This document shows, in pieces, positions 5,157 through 61,582 of a stretch of DNA of 61,582 nt (position 1 is the stretch's first letter; the number at the start of each line of letters is the position of its first letter). The stretch covers positions 1 to 61,582 of the IMG/VR virus record IMGVR_UViG_3300045988_102840; one strand, 5' to 3'. A program made the translations under genes and the position numbers. Origin of the DNA: a virus. Below the pieces are notes generated by a model, which was given only the letters and a program-made list of their open reading frames with translations, had not been told where the DNA came from and made no database searches.

Positions 5157-5266
5157 TTCCTCTTAGCTCAGCCAGGCAGAGCATCGCTATGGTTACTTGT
5201 TCGAAGGTTTAGTATCCGGTAATTTCCGGTTAGCGAAGGTCGCACGTTCGAGTCGTGCAGAGGGAG
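5157..5266 (+). tRNA. tRNA-like gene 1: canonical acceptor, D, anticodon-stem and T arms, but 43 nt where the 7-nt anticodon loop should be
   Basis: Acceptor 5157-5163/5259-5265. D arm GCTC/GAGC. Anticodon stem TCGCT/AGCGA (5184-5188/5232-5236). Variable loop AGGTC. T arm GCACG-TTCGAGT-CGTGC. No canonical anticodon could be assigned. Confidence 0.6.
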
Positions 5267-5269
5267 CAA

Positions 5270-7085: not shown

Positions 7086-7189
7086 TGCGACATGGTGGAA
7101 TGGTAGACGCAGCACTCTATGATAGGAATGTCAAACCTTAGATGTGTGGAGCTTGACAACTCGTCCCGGTTCGAGTCCGGGTGTCGCAA
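7086..7189 (+). tRNA. tRNA-like gene 2: class-II-like acceptor, D and T arms, but a 53-nt non-canonical middle
   Basis: Acceptor TGCGACA/TGTCGCA (7086-7092/7182-7188). U8. D arm GTG-GAATGGTAGA-CGC. T arm CCCGG-TTCGAGT-CCGGG. No 5+7+5 anticodon arm can be drawn in 7112-7164. Confidence 0.5.
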
Positions 7190-7224
7190 CATCTTCACTA
7201 CAGATGAAGTATTTGTTTAGTCGT

Positions 7225-7254
7225 AGCCGGGCGGTCTGTGAAGATAGTCCGGTT
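7225..7254 (+). other. hairpin with loop GGTCTGTGAAGATA, followed by a T-run
   Basis: Stem AGCCGGGC/GTCCGGTT (8 bp, 2 G-U). The 13-nt loop core is identical to the one at 11650-11662. Confidence 0.6.
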
Positions 7255-11116: not shown

Positions 11117-11515
11117 ATGCTGTACGAATTTAAGCTAAAAGTAAACAAGGTTAACGAGAAAGGCGATGAAAAGGAAGTCACCGAACATTACATAACCGAT
11201 GATGAGCTTTTCGGTCATGTGGAATTGAAAGGCAATGAGCTATACAACGGTGAGTGTGATGTTTTCGCAATCAGCCGGAGTAAGATACGTGAGATTGTCA
11301 ATGAGAAGCAGGAAGATGAGTTCTTTTATAAGGTTACTCTTGTTGAGATTTTCGTAGACGAAAACGGGAAAGAAAAAGAGAGCAAGTATTATGTTCTAAT
11401 AGCCGCAAAAGACATGGACGATGCCAACAGAAAGGCGGCGGAATACATGAAACAGGGGCTTCAAGACATGAAGCTGGACGCTATTGCAAAGACAAAGATT
11501 TTAGACTTGATATAA
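11117..11515 (+). CDS. hypothetical protein (132 aa)
   Basis: ORF track, with protein-like composition. Confidence 0.6.
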   Translation: MLYEFKLKVNKVNEKGDEKEVTEHYITDDELFGHVELKGNELYNGECDVFAISRSKIREIVNEKQEDEFFYKVTLVEIFVDENGKEKESKYYVLIAAKDMDDANRKAAEYMKQGLQDMKLDAIAKTKILDLI

Positions 11516-11641
11516 TTAACCGAAAGCCCTCTGCTCACACAGAAGTCCCGTGAAAGGTTCGGGTTAAGTGATTTAATTTCAGCTAACAGTTAACTATCCC
11601 GGTGTGGCTTGACCGCCTATCCGGGAACTATTTGTTAACCT

Positions 11642-11671
11642 GCCTGTCCGGTCTGTGAAGATTGGGCGGGC
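11642..11671 (+). other. hairpin with loop GGTCTGTGAAGATT, second copy of the motif
   Basis: Stem GCCTGTCC/GGGCGGGC (8 bp, 2 G-U). The stem sequence differs from 7225-7254 but pairing is kept. It ends 6 nt before tRNA-like frame 3. Confidence 0.6.
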
Positions 11672-11677
11672 AAAAAT

Positions 11678-11887
11678 GGTGGTATGGCGGAACAACGAGA
11701 GACGCTAAAGTGAAGCTCTTATAGATAGGTTGGTAAGTCAATGTGTTACGGTTAGCCGTAAAAAAAAATTCAAACCACTGAGTTAATAACGGGTAATGCC
11801 GAATAGACCGCAATGTCAATGAATAAACTACTTGGTGAAAGTCCAAGAAAAACTCCTATCATGCAGGTGCAAGTCCTGCTACCACCT
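11678..11887 (+). ncRNA. tRNA-like frame 3: 7-bp acceptor, D-arm-like and T-arm-like helices enclosing about 155 nt
   Basis: GGTGGTA (11678-11684) pairs perfectly with TACCACC (11880-11886). TG-GCG...CGC D-arm mimic. GCAGG-TGCAAGT-CCTGC hairpin abuts the 3' acceptor strand. AATGTCAA is shared with frame 2. Confidence 0.35.
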
Positions 11888-11976
11888 CATAAATGTGAGC
11901 CACACGTAAATGGCATGGGTTAGTAATAATGGTTGTGCCCTGGAGAATACGCTTCGGGGCTTTAATAAAAAACATC

Positions 11977-12432
11977 ATGGAAACAAAAGAAATTACCAAG
12001 ACTATTTACACTGCAAATGACGGGAAAGAGTTCTTAACGAAAGAAGATTGCGAAAAGCATGAAAGGTTTGTTGAAGAAATACTTTCACGTATTAAGTATT
12101 TCTGTATCAGATGTAATCCTGACTTAACAGAAACAGGAAATTTCTCTCATAAAATATATGTGGCTGTGTTTTCTAAACATTACCTATATAAAGATATTGC
12201 ATTTCAATGGGCTTTAAAGAAGTTTGGTACTTACTTAGGGGAAAGCGTAATGGGATATGGCTTCCAACCCCATTTTAATGTAAGTGAAGTTTCTAAAGAA
12301 GAATACGAAAACTGCCCACCTACTGAATGGGGAGGCTCGAAATTAGAAAGTGAGAAAATATTCCTTAGTCCCAAATCGGTAGAAGGATTTCCTGAAAACA
12401 TTGACTACATGGAAGAATGGGGATTCAAATAA
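11977..12432 (+). CDS. hypothetical protein (151 aa)
   Basis: ORF track gives 11929..12432. I moved the start to Met17 (METKEITK), downstream of the structured region. Confidence 0.6.
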   Translation: METKEITKTIYTANDGKEFLTKEDCEKHERFVEEILSRIKYFCIRCNPDLTETGNFSHKIYVAVFSKHYLYKDIAFQWALKKFGTYLGESVMGYGFQPHFNVSEVSKEEYENCPPTEWGGSKLESEKIFLSPKSVEGFPENIDYMEEWGFK

Positions 12433-48736: not shown

Positions 48737-48927
48737 TATCTTTGCAGTGTTCAAATTATCGCGGTGCAAAGCCGCAAACATAGCGGCATTTTTTGTGCCC
48801 ATACATAAAGTAGTCTTTAAAATATAAAGATATAACTGCGCCGTGTCGTGGAGTAGAAATACCCACGGAGTTTGCGATAAACTTGAACAACACGTAGCGC
48901 AGTTTTTTTATTGTTCAAATTATCGTT
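48737..48927 (+). promoter_or_regulatory. leader B: TAtcTTTG box plus X / X' / X2 three-part leader with a T7 run
   Basis: X is TGTTCAAATTATCG (48748-48761). X' is GCGATAAACTTGAAC (48874-48888). X2 is an exact 14-nt repeat of X at 48912-48925, 2 nt before the ATG. ACTGCGC/GCGCAGT helix at 48835-48841/48897-48903 is followed by TTTTTTT. Confidence 0.55.
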
Positions 48928-49569
48928 ATGGAAGAATTAAAACTATTCCAATCGCCTATTTTCGGGCAAGTACGTACCGTGGTAATAAACGGTCAAGTAA
49001 TGTTTGCTGCAACAGATGTTGCAAAATGCTTAGGATATGCGAATCCACGTGATGCGATTTCAAAACATTGTAAATCAGACGGGGTCGCGTTTTGCGACGG
49101 GGTGGTTAAAACTGGTCAGAGGAAAGACGGTACTATCTATGAACAAACAGGAGAAATCAAAATAATCACAAAAGGTAACTTAATCCGTTTAGTTGCCAAT
49201 TCAGAACTTCCGCAAGCTGAAGAAGTCGAAAGTTGGATTTTCGATGAAGTTATTCCTACCGTATTAGAAACAGGCGGCTACATTGCCACCAAGCAGGACG
49301 ACACCCCCGAAGAAATCATGGCACGTGCTCTAACCATCGCACAAGCTACAAAAAAATATCTGTTTTTGTTTGGTGATTTATATAATTGTTGTACATTTGC
49401 AGTGCGACAGTTTTATTATCATATTCGGATTGGGGATTTTTTATGCCCGATATTGAAGTATTGCTTAAAATATAAGCAGAGGTTTCTCCGTACATATTCG
49501 CCCCAAAGCCGATATGGAACTGTCGCAAGTTGGAGAAATTCTCTGCTTTCTTTATTTATTAACTTTTAA
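48928..49569 (+). CDS. Bro-N domain protein, apparently truncated (C-terminal 70+ aa read through a promoter and leader)
   Basis: Bro-N blocks FGQVRTVVINGQVMFAATDVAKCLGYANPRDAI...EVESWIFDEVIPTV. After ..ALTIAQAT (about nt 49345) the sequence becomes non-protein-like. Confidence 0.55.
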   Translation: MEELKLFQSPIFGQVRTVVINGQVMFAATDVAKCLGYANPRDAISKHCKSDGVAFCDGVVKTGQRKDGTIYEQTGEIKIITKGNLIRLVANSELPQAEEVESWIFDEVIPTVLETGGYIATKQDDTPEEIMARALTIAQATKKYLFLFGDLYNCCTFAVRQFYYHIRIGDFLCPILKYCLKYKQRFLRTYSPQSRYGTVASWRNSLLSLFINF

Positions 49570-49580
49570 TTTTCATTATT
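49392..49580 (+). promoter_or_regulatory. leader C: TAcaTTTG box plus X / X' / X2 leader, with X2 overlapping the start codon
   Basis: TGCGACAGTT occurs at 49403-49412 and again at 49582-49591 (ATG at 49581). Its complement AACTGTCGCA is at 49518-49527. The long interrupted helix 49404-49435/49501-49526 has about 23 bp. Confidence 0.55.
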
Positions 49581-50501
49581 ATGCGACAGTTGAATGAAAA
49601 TTACTCAAACAGCAATAGCGTTGCTGTGTTAGGTACGGCAAGCCCTTCCGACATGGGGCAAATCTTTTCTTATAATGGGAATAGTGTAAGAATGCGCAAA
49701 ATGAATGGGTATATTCTTGTGTGCCTTACAGACTTTGCAAAACCTTTTCCTGACAAGAATCTTTCTCACATTGTAAACTCAAAGGAGTTAAGCGATTATG
49801 TAGCACGAATGAGTGAAATACAAAATTGTAGTTCACTTGATTTACTGCAAGTTACAAAAGGGAATCATTCAGATGGAAGAGAACAAGGTACATGGGCACA
49901 TCATCGTGTTGCTATCCGTGTCGCTCAAAAATTATCCACTGATTTTGCTATATGGGTAGATGATAAAATAGAGGAGTTATTAACTACTGGAAGCGCATCA
50001 CTCCAACCTCAACTCCCAAATTTTAATAATCCTGCCGAAGCCGCCCGTGCATGGGCAGACCAATACGAGAAAAATCAAGCTCTTGCATTAGAAGTCCAAC
50101 AGCAACAGGAAACTATCGAACTCCAACAGAAAGAGCTTACACAATCTGCACCAAAAGTCAGTTACTACGACAACCACTTACAGAGTGTGAATACGCAGAC
50201 GAGCACACAAGCCGCCAAGCAGATAGGAATGGATGCTGAAAAGCTGCACAAGAAGCTGAAAGAAATCGGAATCATTTACCGGCAAAGCGGGCAGTGGATA
50301 TTACATGCACCTTATTCTACATGGGGGATGCACTCAACTCGTACACAGACGTACACACGTTCGGACGGTTCGACAGGAACAAGTGTATATACGGTATGGA
50401 CTACCAAAGGTGTGCGTTTCATTATTGCTCTATATGAAAATGATTGGGACGTGAAGAAAGCCATTAAGCAGATAAAAGGAGAATTAGAACCCGCTGCGTA
50501 A
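49581..50501 (+). CDS. KilA-N domain plus KilAC antirepressor domain protein
   Basis: GTWAHHRVAIRVAQKLSTDFAIWV is KilA-N. The linker SLQPQLPNFNNPAEAARAWADQYEKNQ is nearly identical to that of 24706..25596. KVSYYDNHLQS...AKQIGMDAEKLHKKLKEIGII is KilAC. Confidence 0.75.
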   Translation: MRQLNENYSNSNSVAVLGTASPSDMGQIFSYNGNSVRMRKMNGYILVCLTDFAKPFPDKNLSHIVNSKELSDYVARMSEIQNCSSLDLLQVTKGNHSDGREQGTWAHHRVAIRVAQKLSTDFAIWVDDKIEELLTTGSASLQPQLPNFNNPAEAARAWADQYEKNQALALEVQQQQETIELQQKELTQSAPKVSYYDNHLQSVNTQTSTQAAKQIGMDAEKLHKKLKEIGIIYRQSGQWILHAPYSTWGMHSTRTQTYTRSDGSTGTSVYTVWTTKGVRFIIALYENDWDVKKAIKQIKGELEPAA

Positions 50502-60171: not shown

Positions 60172-61377
60172 TTACTTCTTAAAAACATTTACATAATCGA
60201 TAACTTTCCGATTAGCTTTATCTACTTTTCGCATGTCAAAATGGATATAGATGTCAGTCGTTGTGCTGTTCGCCCAACTATGCCCAAGCGCGTGGGCGAT
60301 TACCTCTTTGGGGACATCGAGCTCTGCCGCTACCGTGGCCCATGTGTGTCTTGCCCAATATGAAGACAAATCAGGGAATAAAGGATTTCTACTCTTTTTC
60401 CCTCCCAATCCCTTCCTTTCTGTCTCTCCAATCTGTTTTAACCCTATTCCCATACGATGTAGGAAATCCTTGTAATTTCCGTAGTCATCCATTATATTAA
60501 GAAGATAATCCTTCCCTTTGTATTTCTCAATTATAGCCTGCGCTTCCGGTTCTACTTTAATACTGTATAATTTCCCCGTCTTAGCTCTTTTATATTCAAA
60601 ACGACCATTTACCAATGCAGAATGTTTTGCGTTAAACAAATCGGCTGCATTTACTCCTATGAGATAGAACATGAGCATGAACATATCCCTATATCTAATC
60701 TGGTATTCCTCACATGGATAATCTCTCAATAACCTAAGTTGTTCTGCTGTAAGGCTGCGTTTTCGGGTTTCCTCTTTCTTTATTGAAAACCTTCTGAATG
60801 GATACAATGTTGTGTACTCCTCATCAATGGCGTAGTTGAATACACTACGTATGTTCCGTAAATGAATAGCGTAGGCATTAACCTTCATCGTCTTTGCCAT
60901 CCACGCTTCAAAGTTTTCCAGCCACGACTTATCCATGCTCTCAAAAGTACAATGACTATCGTATTCCTCAATCTTGTTTCTTGTGGTTGTATATATAGAC
61001 TTAGTCCCCTGATTGGTTTTCTTGGAAACGAATTCATCAAGATAATAGAGAAACGTCTTTTGATTTTCAACCTTGCTACTTATAGCGTCCTCTATCAACT
61101 TCTTCAAAGCTTTGTCTGTAGTTGATTTCAACTTTTCTTGTTGCTCTAAAGTAAATATTACTGTTTCCGCCTTGTTTATTATTCCACGGGCAACTATATT
61201 TCTCGGCTTGTAATTTTGTGCACGCACAGAATATTCGTTCCCATTCCATTCTTTTTCCGATGCACTTAGCTGCGTAGCTATCATTATTTGTTTGTTGTGG
61301 AATACATTCAACTTTATCGGATAAGTACCATCTTTTTTTTGCCTTCTTTTATCAAGGTAGAATTTAACCGTTGCCAT
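60172..61377 (-). CDS. int: tyrosine site-specific integrase
   Basis: 401 aa. Arm-binding-type N-terminus (MATVKFYLDKRRQKKDGTYPI) and C-terminal ..ARHTWATVAA...HALGHS...TDIYIHF catalytic blocks. It lies adjacent to attR. Confidence 0.9.
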   Translation of the reverse strand: MATVKFYLDKRRQKKDGTYPIKLNVFHNKQIMIATQLSASEKEWNGNEYSVRAQNYKPRNIVARGIINKAETVIFTLEQQEKLKSTTDKALKKLIEDAISSKVENQKTFLYYLDEFVSKKTNQGTKSIYTTTRNKIEEYDSHCTFESMDKSWLENFEAWMAKTMKVNAYAIHLRNIRSVFNYAIDEEYTTLYPFRRFSIKKEETRKRSLTAEQLRLLRDYPCEEYQIRYRDMFMLMFYLIGVNAADLFNAKHSALVNGRFEYKRAKTGKLYSIKVEPEAQAIIEKYKGKDYLLNIMDDYGNYKDFLHRMGIGLKQIGETERKGLGGKKSRNPLFPDLSSYWARHTWATVAAELDVPKEVIAHALGHSWANSTTTDIYIHFDMRKVDKANRKVIDYVNVFKK

Positions 61378-61537: not shown

Positions 61538-61582
61538 AGCGGAAAACGGGATTCGAACCCGCGACCCTCAGCTTGGGAAGCT
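61538..61582 (-). tRNA. tRNA-Gly (anticodon CCC), 3' portion only; the 5' part lies beyond the window
   Basis: The reverse complement reads AGC-TTCCCAA-GCTGA-GGGTC-GCGGG-TTCGAAT-CCCGT-TTTCCGC-T. This gives the anticodon loop with CCC, the T arm, the acceptor 3' strand and U73. Confidence 0.8.
61553..61582. repeat. attR core: right copy of the 30-nt direct repeat
   Basis: Identical to 1-30. Confidence 0.85.

What the first reader, a model, noticed from the sequence alone, without database searches (positions are those of the whole stretch)
11520..11976. About 450-nt non-coding gap containing a 210-nt tRNA-like frame
No credible ORF lies between 11515 and 11977. Inside, GGTGGTA (11678-11684) pairs perfectly with TACCACC (11880-11886). 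The 5' strand is followed by TG-GCG-(13 nt)-CGC, which mimics a D arm. The 3' strand is preceded directly by GCAGG-TGCAAGT-CCTGC, which mimics a T arm with a non-canonical G at the second loop position (tRNA position 55). The roughly 155-nt interior shares CT(T)ATAGATAGG..GTCAA and AATGTCAA (11812-11819) with the middle of tRNA-like gene 2 (AATGTCAA at 7127-7134). Further helices lie on both sides (TCCCGG/CCGGGA, CCCTG/CGGGG). This looks like an expanded relative of gene 2 or a novel tRNA-scaffolded RNA. It is too short for tmRNA and has no obvious tag ORF.
Basis: seen in the sequence. Interest (0 to 1): 0.65.

Follow-up and report, generated by a model that had tools for sequence, protein, structure and literature searches.

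The report
Phage tRNA-shaped RNA carrying structured cargo
The gap holds a real gene for a roughly 210-base RNA that keeps the outer shape of a leucine-type tRNA but has a folded multi-hairpin domain instead of an anticodon arm, and it belongs to a large, apparently undescribed, mix-and-match family in Bacteroides gut phages.

Summary
Window 11678-11887 (+) encodes a structured, non-coding, tRNA-like RNA. It has a 7-bp acceptor stem, a 3-bp class-II (tRNA-Leu-type) D stem, and a T arm beside the 3' acceptor strand. A 6-bp helix (GATAGG/CCTATC) closes about 125 nt of hairpins where the anticodon arm should be. No anticodon loop exists, and ARAGORN and Rfam see nothing. Homologues occur in over 100 IMG/VR and metagenome contigs and in Bacteroides genomes. 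On 16 distinct homologues 98.7% of pair cells are standard pairs, 10 pairs show compensatory changes, and 0 of 500 shuffles reach this. The D-loop and T-loop co-vary (28 and 14 frames against 1 mixed). The same interior sits in three different acceptor/T-arm frames, and one frame carries at least five different interiors. Many copies lie in a cassette of a 5' GNRA-capped hairpin, the tRNA-like RNA, a conserved 3' block and a terminator. Best reading: a non-decoding tRNA mimic cut out by tRNA-maturation enzymes, whose interior is the working part. Function is unproven. Intron-bearing tRNA, tmRNA, group I intron, small protein and antisense RNA were tested and not supported. The closest described analogue is phage T4 species 1 RNA (rnaC), itself unexplained.

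The parts
11641..11672 (+). 5' leader hairpin. A 14-bp stem (11641-54 with 11659-72) is capped by a GTGA (GNRA-type) tetraloop at 11655-58. It ends 5 nt before the RNA body and is preceded by a conserved TTTGTT (11632-37).
   Evidence: RNAfold of 38 distinct leaders gives the same hairpin. The apical GGTCTGTGAAGAT is conserved and the lower stem covaries, for example CTGCCTGTCC/GGGGCGGGC against CTGCCTACTC/GAGTAGGC. The hairpin is absent in some loci (L110, L112, L116), so it is a separable module.
11678..11887 (+). The tRNA-like RNA body, 210 nt including discriminator T11887.
   Evidence: The exact 3' arm 24-mer occurs in 98 IMG/VR loci.
11678..11684 (+). Acceptor stem 5' strand GGTGGTA, pairing with 11880-11886 TACCACC.
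   Evidence: Three of the 7 pairs show double compensatory changes (GC/UA/AU, UA/CG/AU, GC/AU/UA). The stem is replaced wholesale by GTCAGTA/TGCTGAC and GAATGAG/CTCATTC in homologues with the same interior.
11687..11705 (+). D arm. A 3-bp stem (GCG 11687-89 with CGC 11703-05) encloses a 13-nt loop that lacks the GG pair. U8, A14, A15, A21 and U48 equivalents are present.
   Evidence: The middle pair is CG in 9, UA in 5 and UG in 2 of 16 sequences. The D arm resembles tRNA-Leu TGGCGGAATTGGTAGACGC. D-loops without GG go with T-loop TGC in 28 frames, D-loops with GG go with TTC in 14, and 1 is mixed.
11714..11718 (+). Candidate pseudoknot strand AGCTC, pairing with GAGTT 11780-11784. This pairing crosses the closing helix.
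   Evidence: Support is moderate. L116 changes G.U to G-C. L292 swaps both strands to ATCCTT/AAGGAT (6 Watson-Crick pairs). L262 has CGCTC/GAGTG, L281 has GACTC/GAGTT and the 221-nt class has CATAC/GTATG. Against it, the pairing is broken in L286, and RNAalifold prefers a local TTCA/TGAG hairpin.
11724..11729 (+). Closing helix 5' strand GATAGG, pairing with CCTATC 11855-11860. The helix occupies the place of the anticodon stem and encloses the roughly 125-nt cargo.
   Evidence: It is predicted by the MFE fold and by RNAalifold. It is invariant within this class. Related classes have GATAG/CTATC, GATGG/CCATC, CTTGG/CCAAG or GATTGATGCT/AGCAT..CAATC at the same place.
11746..11761 (+). Cargo hairpin H1: TTACGG, TTAG loop, CCGTAA.
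   Evidence: GC changes to GU in 6 of 16 sequences and to AU in 1.
11790..11801 (+). Cargo hairpin H2: CGG, GTAATG loop, CCG.
   Evidence: The middle pair is GC in 10, AU in 4 and GU in 2 of 16 sequences.
11806..11817 (+). Cargo hairpin H3: GAC, CGCAAT loop, GTC.
   Evidence: The outer pair is GC in 9 and CG in 7 of 16 sequences.
11831..11847 (+). Cargo hairpin H4: CTTGG, TGAAAGT loop, CCAAG. It has anticodon-arm geometry (5 bp plus a 7-nt loop) but G where U33 would be.
   Evidence: It is invariant in this class. L281 has a different stem (ACGT/ACGT) with the same GAAAG loop.
11863..11879 (+). T arm: GCAGG, TGCAAGT loop, CCTGC.
   Evidence: Two pairs show double changes (CG/UA and AU/GC). Homologues with canonical TTCGATC or TTCAAGT loops carry the same or related cargo.
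11888..11936 (+). Conserved 3' block CATAAATGTGAGCCACACRTAAATGGCAWGGGTTAGTAAATAATGGTTGT, starting right after the discriminator.
   Evidence: It is more than 90% conserved behind at least 10 different tRNA-like frames. It has no conserved fold. It also occurs without a tRNA-like RNA in L022.
11937..11968 (+). Terminator-type hairpin: GCCCTGGAG, AATACG loop, CTTCGGGGC, then TTTAATAAAAAA.
   Evidence: This is the only helix RNAalifold finds in 51 distinct downstream sequences. The window's copy has a weak T tail and is not called by the consensus scan. Most homologues have TTTTAAT.

Best explanation
Window 11678-11887 is a gene for a stable, non-decoding tRNA mimic. It derives from a class-II (leucine-type) phage tRNA. 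It keeps everything that tRNA-maturation enzymes read: a 7-bp acceptor stem with a discriminator, the coaxial T arm, the D arm, and the D-loop/T-loop elbow. The anticodon arm is replaced by a cargo domain of about 125 nt, made of four hairpins closed by a 6-bp helix, with a possible pseudoknot to the linker.

Inferred mechanism:
1. The RNA is transcribed in the early (recombination/replication) region of a temperate Bacteroides phage. It comes either from its own start just upstream of the 5' hairpin or as part of the operon transcript.
2. RNase P cuts at G11678. RNase Z or exonucleases trim after T11887.
3. CCA is added, since Bacteroides tRNA genes do not encode it.
4. The tRNA-shaped frame gives defined ends and stability. 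The cargo is the working part and acts in trans by binding a host or phage factor.

Shown here: the RNA structure, its conservation and covariation, the modular frame/cargo exchange, and the absence of an anticodon loop, a coding potential or any known family. Inferred only: processing, CCA addition, action in trans, and the identity of the partner.
For: 1. The structure is real.
- 43 pairs in 9 helices give 98.7% standard pairs over 16 distinct homologues.
- 10 pairs have changes on both sides.
- 0 of 500 shuffles reach these values, and slid controls give 33-40% paired.
- RNAalifold finds the same nested helices on its own.

2. tRNA tertiary logic is kept.
- The U8, A14, A15/U48 and A21 equivalents are read directly from the sequence.
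- The D-loop GG and T-loop position 55 co-vary: 28 frames lack GG and have G55, 14 have GG and U55, and 1 is mixed.
- A 187-nt sibling passes the Rfam tRNA gathering score only with a 122-nt insertion in place of the anticodon arm.

3. It does not decode.
- Default ARAGORN and Rfam find no tRNA.
- No 7-nt YU-NNN-R loop closes any hairpin. The H4 loop is UGAAAGU.

4. The cargo is the selected module.
- The identical cargo sits in the frames GGTGGTA/TACCACC, GTCAGTA/TGCTGAC and GAATGAG/CTCATTC. Their discriminators are U or A and their T-loops differ.
- The cargo's own hairpins show compensatory changes.
- Conversely, the GGTGGTA frame carries interiors that give 156-, 187-, 210-, 221- and 253-nt RNAs.

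5. It is co-transcribed and needs excision in some loci. The frame starts a few nt after an ORF's stop codon, with no hairpin or promoter room, in L110 and L116.

6. It is widespread. The 24-mer hits 98 IMG/VR loci, and more than 119 loci carry the 3' block. True genome hits are all Bacteroides.

7. There is a precedent. T4 rnaC (species 1 RNA) lies in the T4 tRNA cluster. It has a canonical T arm next to a terminal helix and hairpins in between. Its function is still unknown (PMC9697503).
Against: - There are no expression, end-mapping or CCA data, so every processing step is inferred.
- Within the window's own class, most of the covariation comes from two or three diverged lineages (the L116 group, L254/L300 and L292). 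The number of independent events is therefore small.
- The closing helix is invariant in the 16-sequence alignment. In the other classes retrieved by the metagenome scan its sequence was fixed by the search pattern.
- The pseudoknot is only moderately supported and is broken in L286.
- No partner for the cargo was found. There is no antisense target in the window and no obligatory neighbouring protein. DUF4494 lies upstream in only 82 of 185 loci.
- A73 is kept in most Leu-type frames (read from the sequences). That could mean the acceptor end itself matters, which favours the rival in which the RNA is aminoacylated.
Confidence: 0.55

Rival explanations
1. It is an aminoacylatable tRNA mimic whose acceptor end is the working part. 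Host LeuRS ignores the anticodon and would charge it. It would then act through its charged or uncharged 3' end, either by titrating LeuRS, EF-Tu or the CCA-adding enzyme, or by entering a non-ribosomal or tmRNA-like pathway. The cargo would serve as a modulator or localiser.
For: - The frames come from tRNA types whose synthetases do not read the anticodon. The D arm is Leu-type, with A14, A15/U48 and a 3-bp D stem.
- Other classes in the same cassette carry G3.U70 plus A73, the alanine identity set. One of them hits the tmRNA model's tRNA-like domain (28 bits against a gathering score of 47).
- A73 is present in most cargo-bearing Leu-type frames.
Against: - The window's copy and the commonest variant have U73, not A73. 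Among 43 distinct frames, A occurs 23 times, T 19 times and G once.
- The same cargo occurs with three unrelated acceptor stems and two discriminators. Acceptor identity therefore does not travel with the function.
- The T-loop has G55 and the D-loop lacks G18-G19 in this class.
- There is no tag ORF.
Confidence: 0.13
2. It is a decoy for a host defence or toxin that recognises tRNA shape, meaning the acceptor/T-arm minihelix or the elbow. The diversity of frames would reflect an arms race.
For: - At least 13 sequence classes with at least 10 different acceptor/T arms sit at the same cassette position.
- Up to three such genes occur per phage, all in the early region.
- Phage tRNAs are known to counter tRNA-targeting defences (background knowledge, not tested here).
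Against: - A decoy needs no conserved, covarying 125-nt cargo.
- Anticodon nucleases, the best-known tRNA-targeting defences, could not be decoyed by an RNA without an anticodon loop.
- No defence or anti-defence gene association was seen.
Confidence: 0.12
3. It is a cis-acting processing and termination element of the early operon ('tRNA punctuation'). RNase P/Z cleavage at the tRNA-like fold, together with the terminator, would separate and differentially stabilise the upstream and downstream mRNAs. The RNA itself would be a by-product.
For: - The element lies between genes of one strand and is followed by a terminator.
- Some copies abut the stop codon of the upstream ORF.
- The 3' block and terminator also exist without the tRNA-like part (L022).
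Against: A minimal acceptor/T-arm hairpin would be enough for cleavage. This rival does not explain the conserved, covarying cargo, the maintained D arm and elbow, or the exchange of whole cargo modules.
Confidence: 0.1
4. It is a true tRNA gene interrupted by an intron, like the 'enigmatic introns' of Lak megaphage tRNAs. The intron would be removed to give a decoding tRNA.
For:
- It also calls many similar genes in related phages.
- Intron-bearing phage tRNAs have been reported (bioRxiv 10.1101/356790).
- A sister class (L102/L002) has a hairpin with a CUUAAAA loop.
Against: - For this locus ARAGORN -i finds no solution spanning the frame. At a lowered threshold it calls only an unrelated internal 'tRNA-Asn' at 11714-11856.
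- Removing any single contiguous segment leaves no anticodon stem-loop, because 17 nt separate the D stem from the closing helix and only 2 nt separate that helix from the T stem.
- There is no group I or group II intron match in Rfam.
- No intron-less allele of the frame turned up among 116 distinct Leu-type D-arm hits.
- No RNA ligase or splicing endonuclease is found among the 58 window ORFs compared with PHROGs or Pfam.
- The gene 2 'intron' solution is itself broken in a homologue.
Confidence: 0.06
5. It is a decaying tRNA pseudogene, or an attachment-site relic, without RNA function.
For: It is not recognised by tRNA finders. The prophage integrates next to a tRNA, with an integrase at 60172-61377 and a tRNA fragment at the window end.
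Against: - There are compensatory changes in nine helices.
- The sequence is near-identical in about 100 contigs, apart from A-run length.
- A full 5' half with a D arm is present, which an att relic would lack.
Confidence: 0.03

Closest known systems
Phage T4 species 1 RNA (rnaC), and rnaD, the small stable RNAs of the T4 tRNA cluster
   Same: - Both are phage-encoded stable RNAs sitting among tRNA or tRNA-like genes.
- rnaC (139 nt) ends in a canonical T arm (CCGGG UUCGAAU CCCGG). This is followed by a 3' strand that pairs with the 5' end, with long hairpins in between.
- rnaC has no anticodon loop.
- Its function is still unknown (PMC9697503).
- Processing of rnaC together with the tRNAs is recalled from the older literature and was not tested here.
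   Different: - No sequence similarity was looked for or seen.
- rnaC has an irregular, short terminal helix and no D arm. The present RNA keeps a perfect 7-bp acceptor stem, a D arm and elbow covariation.
- The present RNA carries a four-hairpin cargo.
- It belongs to a family in which frames and cargos are exchanged.
tRNAs with 'enigmatic introns' in Lak megaphages of Prevotella (Devoto et al., bioRxiv 10.1101/356790)
   Same: Both are oversized tRNA-like genes in phages of Bacteroidota, missed by bacterial tRNA finders. Their inserts are highly conserved and no splicing mechanism is known.
   Different: The Lak genes were read as tRNAs with an assignable anticodon once the insert is removed. 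Here no anticodon arm can be restored. Homology between the two sets was not tested.
tmRNA (SsrA)
   Same: Both have a tRNA-like acceptor/T-arm domain that encloses a large structured interior with pseudoknots. Both are non-decoding in the usual sense.
   Different: - tmRNA needs G3.U70 and A73, a tag reading frame, a reduced D arm and SmpB.
- Here position 3-70 is U-A, there is a real D stem, there is no conserved ORF, and the length is 210 nt.
- Neither Rfam nor ARAGORN gives a tmRNA match for the window.
Class-II tRNA-Leu of phages and bacteria
   Same: - The D arm is TGGCGG..AGACGC with a 3-bp stem.
- U8, A14 and A15/U48 are present.
- The T arm and the 7-bp acceptor stem are present.
- The 20-mer ATGGCGGAATTGGTAGACGC retrieves both normal tRNA-Leu genes and cargo-bearing relatives.
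   Different: There is no anticodon stem-loop and no variable arm. The T-loop has G55 and the D-loop has no GG. The discriminator is U. The RNA is 210 nt rather than about 85.
Engineered 'tRNA scaffolds' for expressing recombinant RNAs, and the tRNA-miRNA chimeras (TMERs) of murine gammaherpesvirus 68. Both are recalled from memory and serve as leads only.
   Same: In both, a tRNA body is used as a handle for processing and stability of a non-tRNA payload. In the engineered scaffold the payload replaces the anticodon arm, as it does here.
   Different: One is man-made and the other is eukaryotic-viral and transcribed by RNA polymerase III, with the payload downstream of the tRNA. Neither is related by descent.

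Membership tests
Canonical tRNA (Rfam RF00005 / ARAGORN) | 7-bp acceptor stem plus an unpaired discriminator | tested here: met
   11678-84 pairs with 11880-86 perfectly, and the discriminator is T11887. The pairs covary.
Canonical tRNA (Rfam RF00005 / ARAGORN) | D arm and T arm forming the elbow (G18-G19 with U55-C56) | tested here: inconclusive
   The arms are present and covary. This class has G55 and no GG in the D-loop. The two features co-vary across frames (28, 14 and 1), which suggests an altered but maintained elbow.
Canonical tRNA (Rfam RF00005 / ARAGORN) | Anticodon stem of 5 bp closing a 7-nt loop with U33 and a readable anticodon | tested here: not met
   No such hairpin exists. 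The only 5-bp/7-nt hairpin has the loop UGAAAGU (11836-42). The closing helix encloses about 125 nt.
Canonical tRNA (Rfam RF00005 / ARAGORN) | Passes the family model | tested here: not met
   There is no RF00005 match at E up to 10 in 11400-12100. Default ARAGORN finds 0 genes in the window.
Intron-containing tRNA (group I self-splicing or enzyme-spliced) | Removing one contiguous insert restores a cloverleaf | tested here: not met
   ARAGORN -i 0-300 gives no solution for 11678-11887. The linker lengths of 17 nt and 2 nt forbid it.
Intron-containing tRNA (group I self-splicing or enzyme-spliced) | Intron core recognisable (P3-P7 and so on) | tested here: not met
   There are no intron families in the Rfam scans at E up to 10.
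Intron-containing tRNA (group I self-splicing or enzyme-spliced) | Spliced product exists | not testable with these tools
   This needs RNA-seq.
tmRNA | G3.U70 and A73 alanine identity | tested here: not met
   Position 3-70 is U-A and the discriminator is U.
tmRNA | Conserved tag reading frame | tested here: not met
   The ATG of the only plus-strand ORF is lost in the L116 group, and there are indels in the A-run.
tmRNA | Passes the RF00023 or ARAGORN tmRNA models | tested here: not met
   Searches give no match. A different class in the same cassette (98 nt, L142) scores 28 bits against a gathering score of 47.
Bacterial Y RNA (YrlA) tRNA mimics | Matches the Rfam model, with the tRNA-like module internal to a Ro-binding terminal stem | tested here: not met
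   There is no Rfam match. The topology is the reverse, because here the tRNA-like helices are terminal.
HDV-like 'theta' ribozyme directly 3' of phage tRNAs (considered for the 3' block 11888-11936) | Nested double-pseudoknot fold starting at the tRNA 3' end | tested here: not met
   RNAalifold on 51 distinct 3' blocks finds only the terminator hairpin. No HDV-type family appears in the Rfam scans. Whether Rfam 15 holds a theta model is not known to me.
Phage 'species 1'-type stable tRNA-like RNAs (T4 rnaC). This is an informal group, not a curated family. | Phage-encoded, terminal helix next to a canonical T arm, non-tRNA interior, lying among tRNA or tRNA-like genes | tested here: met
   The anatomy of rnaC was read and folded. 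The window has three tRNA-like genes in its early region. Relatives in other phages lie next to normal tRNAs.
Phage 'species 1'-type stable tRNA-like RNAs (T4 rnaC). This is an informal group, not a curated family. | Common descent or sequence homology | not tested
   No alignment was attempted. Nothing suggests homology.

The most novel reading that the evidence does not exclude
Gut Bacteroides phages, and judging from the Leu D-arm scan many other phages, maintain a modular system. A small set of tRNA-shaped frames serves as interchangeable 'expression handles' for a diverse library of structured cargo RNAs. These cargos would be aptamer-like domains that bind host or phage proteins, for example as sponges or anti-defence decoys. 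This would be a natural counterpart of the engineered tRNA scaffold and a general explanation for 'oversized' phage tRNA genes, the Lak 'enigmatic introns' and T4 species 1 RNA.
Probability: 0.3. Interest if true: 0.8.

Novelty: new variant of a known kind. Interest (0 to 1): 0.66.

Why it matters
- Phage tRNA-like genes that tRNA finders miss are usually ignored or filed as pseudo-tRNAs or 'introns'. Here one of them proves to be a conserved, covarying, modular RNA present in hundreds of human-gut phage contigs.
- If the frames are processing and stability handles for diverse cargo domains, this is a sizeable unexplored class of phage non-coding RNAs in the most abundant gut bacteria.
- It would also give a testable model for RNAs that have been unexplained for decades (T4 rnaC and rnaD) or for years (the Lak tRNA 'introns').
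- The cargos are compact, naturally stabilised RNA modules. They could be mined as protein-binding or regulatory parts.

Tried and rejected
- **Known RNA families.** Rfam at gathering score and at E up to 10 gave nothing in the region. This covered the window, the region alone, and 13 loci holding other classes. The only window hits were c4-2 at 48834-48906 and a tRNA fragment at the window end.
- **tRNA with intron.** ARAGORN -i gave no solution for this locus. Its solutions for relatives at lowered thresholds have mismatched anticodon stems. The gene 2 solution is not kept in a homologue.
- **Intron-less allele.** None with the GGTGGTA frame appeared among the tRNA-Leu-type hits.
- **Small protein.** The ORFs are not conserved.
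- **Antisense regulator of its own phage.** Only chance 9-11-mers are complementary to the window.
- **Ribozyme or other fold in the conserved 3' block.** Only the terminator is found.
- **The 3' block or 5' hairpin as obligatory partners.** Both are separable from the tRNA-like part.
- **DUF4494 (the upstream gene) as obligatory protein partner.** It is present in only 82 of 185 loci. Its model (pLDDT 94) is a tandem beta-beta-alpha-beta-beta fold whose best PDB matches are ribosomal protein eL20, at weak scores (E 3e-3, TM 0.32). This hints at RNA binding and nothing more.
- **RNA-repair or splicing enzymes in the window.** None were found among the 58 ORFs compared with PHROGs or Pfam.
They are chance level.
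- **Literature.** Seven full-text searches found no description of this family. The supplement of the csRNA catalogue was not available.
- **Genome scan.** The genome-contig scan with a 17-mer returned mostly chance hits. Only the Bacteroides ones are real.
Full report
**1. What the window is**

The window is a temperate Bacteroides-type prophage.
- An integrase (60172-61377, minus strand) lies next to the 3' part of a host tRNA at the window end.
- Head, portal, terminase and tail genes lie on the minus strand.
- An early plus-strand region holds RecT, an exonuclease, RusA, an HNH endonuclease and antirepressors.
- A c4-2 antisense RNA lies at 48834-48906, just upstream of an antirepressor gene.
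- DNA matches go to unannotated human-faecal phage contigs and, for short stretches, to Bacteroides and Phocaeicola phages.

The finding lies in the early region. It sits between a DUF4494 gene (11117-11515; Pfam PF14902) and an unassigned 151-aa ORF that starts at 11977.

**2. The observation**

A strict search looked for a T arm (5-bp stem with a T[TG]C[AG]ANN loop) followed by a 7-nt strand that has a perfect 7-bp partner within 300 nt. It returns exactly three sites on both strands of the 61.6-kb window: 5157-5265, 7086-7188 and 11678-11886. Default ARAGORN finds no tRNA or tmRNA in the window. Rfam finds nothing in the gap, even at E up to 10.

Short ORFs overlap the gap but are not conserved. 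The start codon of the 36-aa plus-strand ORF is ACG in the L116 group. An A-run inside the 72-aa minus-strand ORF varies between 7 and 10 residues among otherwise identical copies.

**3. Homologues and structure**

The 24-mer covering the T arm and 3' acceptor strand occurs exactly in 98 IMG/VR loci. A metagenome scan for the two strands of the closing helix brought in further variants. Sixteen distinct sequences of the window's class were aligned.

The tested structure had nine helices: the acceptor stem, the D stem, the closing helix GATAGG/CCTATC, four cargo hairpins, the T stem, and a candidate pseudoknot.
- 98.7% of 681 cells are standard pairs.
- 10 of 43 pairs show changes on both sides.
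- None of 500 column shuffles reaches the observed values.
- Sliding the partners by 1-3 columns drops pairing to 33-40%.
- RNAalifold, run blind on the same alignment, returns the same nested helices.

Caveats apply. Most variation comes from three diverged lineages. The structure was first drawn from these sequences. The closing helix never varies within this class. However, related classes have GATAG/CTATC, GATGG/CCATC, CTTGG/CCAAG or a 10-bp GATTGATGCT/AGCAT..CAATC helix at the same position.

The candidate pseudoknot joins AGCTC (11714-18), in the linker, to GAGTT (11780-84).
- In its favour: a G.U to G-C change in L116, and a complete two-sided swap to ATCCTT/AAGGAT in L292.
- In its favour: matching pairs at the homologous place in four other cargo classes.
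- Against it: the pairing is broken in L286, and RNAalifold prefers a local hairpin.

I treat it as likely but unproven.

**4. It is tRNA-shaped but not a tRNA**

The frame carries class-II tRNA marks.
- U8 is present, and the D stem has 3 bp.
- A14 and A15 are present, with a U just before the T stem. Together these match the A15/U48 pair of tRNA-Leu.
- A21 is present, and the T-loop has T54 and A58.
- The D arm is a variant of the tRNA-Leu D arm TGGCGGAATTGGTAGACGC.

In this class the D-loop has lost the GG and the T-loop has G at position 55. Across 43 distinct frames of this type the two features go together: 28 frames lack GG and have G55, 14 have GG and U55, and 1 is mixed. That pattern is expected if the 18-55 elbow contact is maintained. 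A 187-nt sibling with canonical loops passes the Rfam tRNA gathering score, but only by skipping a 122-nt insertion where the anticodon arm should be.

No hairpin in the window's RNA has a 7-nt loop with U33. Seventeen nucleotides separate the D stem from the closing helix, and only two separate that helix from the T stem. Removing a single insert therefore cannot restore a cloverleaf. ARAGORN with introns allowed gives no solution for this frame.

**5. The family is modular**

Downstream of the discriminator lies a block, CATAAATGTGAGCCACAC..., followed by a strong hairpin and a T-run. Searching for this block gave more than 119 IMG/VR loci.
- The sequences just upstream end in at least ten different T arms and acceptor strands.
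- None of about 90 distinct upstream sequences is recognised by default ARAGORN.
- Matching 5' strands define RNAs of 74 to 255 nt in at least 13 sequence classes.
- The GGTGGTA frame occurs with interiors that give 156, 187, 210, 221 and 253 nt.
- The window's cargo occurs in the frames GGTGGTA/TACCACC, GTCAGTA/TGCTGAC and GAATGAG/CTCATTC. The last has a canonical TTCGATC T-loop.
- The 187-nt cargo also occurs in a GGATAAG/CTTATCC frame (L286).

Many copies are preceded by a 14-bp hairpin with a GTGA tetraloop, a conserved apex and a covarying lower stem. This hairpin and the 3' block are separable from the tRNA-like part. Some copies follow an ORF's stop codon directly, and the 3' block can stand alone. 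The 3' block has no conserved fold apart from the terminator. True genome hits are all in Bacteroides.

A scan with the tRNA-Leu D-arm 20-mer shows the phenomenon is much wider. Of 116 distinct IMG/VR sequences, 62 are normal tRNAs and 54 are not recognised. Many of the 54 have the same architecture, and a few look like group I intron hosts.

**6. What it most likely does**

Facts to explain:
1. The tRNA features kept are those read by RNase P, RNase Z and the CCA-adding enzyme: the acceptor/T-arm helix and the elbow.
2. The decoding part is gone.
3. The cargo is conserved and covaries.
4. The cargo moves between frames whose acceptor sequence, discriminator and T-loop differ.

The simplest account is that the frame is a handle giving defined ends and stability, and the cargo is the effector acting in trans. 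I put this at about 0.55. Processing, CCA addition and action in trans are inferences.

The rivals are:
- An aminoacylatable mimic. It is attractive because Leu- and Ala-type frames are exactly those whose synthetases ignore the anticodon, and A73 is common. It is weakened by U73 here and by frame swapping.
- A decoy for tRNA-shape-recognising host factors.
- A cis-acting punctuation and termination element.
- An intron-bearing tRNA.
- A pseudogene.

No cargo partner was identified. There is no antisense target in the window. The upstream DUF4494 protein has a confident model (pLDDT 94) with a tandem beta-beta-alpha-beta-beta fold. Its best, weak PDB matches are ribosomal protein eL20. It accompanies the cassette in only 82 of 185 loci.

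**7. Comparison with what is known**

Tests for membership in tRNA, tmRNA, group I intron, Y RNA and HDV-like ribozyme families all fail on a defining feature (see the membership table).

The nearest described object is T4 species 1 RNA (rnaC). It is a 139-nt stable RNA in the T4 tRNA cluster. It has a canonical T arm next to a terminal helix and hairpins in place of the rest. Its function is still listed as unknown (PMC9697503).

Oversized tRNA genes with 'enigmatic introns' were reported in Lak megaphages of Prevotella (bioRxiv 10.1101/356790). A catalogue of viral candidate structured RNAs mentions tRNA-like candidates in general terms (PMC10690425). Seven full-text searches found no description of this family or of frame/cargo modularity.

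**8. Verdict**

The region encodes a tRNA-scaffolded structured RNA, one member of a large modular family in gut Bacteroides phages. It is a new variant of a known kind (phage tRNA-like stable RNAs). Its function is unknown, but the open questions are well defined and testable.

Noticed in passing
window 5157-5267 (+): tRNA-Arg(CCG)-like gene with 34 extra nt at the 5' edge of the anticodon loop (ARAGORN -i). The insert holds a near-copy (TCCGGT) of the anticodon loop TTCCGGT. A diverged homologue has a perfect 7-nt duplicate. The two CCGG could pair and hide the anticodon.
   Followed up: partly
window 7086-7190 (+): tRNA-Leu-type frame ('gene 2') with 19 extra nt. ARAGORN's tRNA-Leu(tag) solution has a U.U mismatch and is broken in a homologue. 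An alternative fold is a 12-bp extended arm capped by a GGAA tetraloop. The same frame occurs with a 189-nt body in a related phage.
   Followed up: partly
window 7227-7252 (+) and 11641-11672 (+): The same hairpin apex, GGTCTGTGAAGAT (GTGA tetraloop), occurs twice. One copy lies about 40 nt downstream of gene 2, where a T-run follows it. The other lies just upstream of the finding, where an A-run follows it.
   Followed up: partly
window 11597-11631 (+): A 35-nt hairpin, TATCCCGGTGTGGCTTGACCGCCTATCCGGGAACT, is 97-100% identical in otherwise unrelated Bacteroides phages (LoVEphage, BI-TP1, PV4-TP1). It sits in unannotated spacers at different genome positions.
   Followed up: no
window 11888-11960 (+); L022: The 3' block (about 50 nt) plus terminator is more than 90% conserved behind many different tRNA-like RNAs and once behind a protein gene. 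It contains three ATAAATG-like repeats and no conserved fold. It could be a protein-binding or 3'-trailer sRNA element.
   Followed up: partly
L165 2150-2520 (also L118, L138): Two tRNA-like RNAs of different classes lie in tandem, only 4 nt apart: a 187-nt GGTGGTA frame followed by a 189-nt GGGATAA frame. The shared 3' block follows them.
   Followed up: no
L142 640-740; L103 and relatives: The 98-nt and 143-nt classes in the same cassette have G3.U70 plus A73, the alanine identity set. The 98-nt one hits the tmRNA model's tRNA-like domain at 28 bits (gathering score 47). No tag ORF was examined.
   Followed up: partly
L102, L002, L333, L344: A cargo class has a hairpin with loop CUUAAAA, like a tRNA-Leu(UAA) anticodon loop. 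It follows an insert of about 80 nt placed after the D arm. This class might still decode.
   Followed up: no
window 11117-11515 (+): The DUF4494 protein gives a confident model (pLDDT 94) with two beta-beta-alpha-beta-beta repeats. Its best PDB matches are ribosomal protein eL20, with weak scores (E 3e-3, TM 0.32).
   Followed up: partly
window 48834-48906 (+) and 48928-50501 (+): A c4-2 antisense RNA (49.6 bits) lies immediately upstream of two antirepressor genes. This is a P1-like immunity arrangement in a Bacteroides prophage.
   Followed up: no
window 61538-61582 (-) and 60172-61377 (-): The 3' half of a host tRNA lies at the window edge next to the integrase. It is probably the attachment site. 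The host tRNA gene does not encode CCA.
   Followed up: partly
Many come from phages unrelated to the window, and some lie inside normal tRNA arrays.
   Followed up: partly
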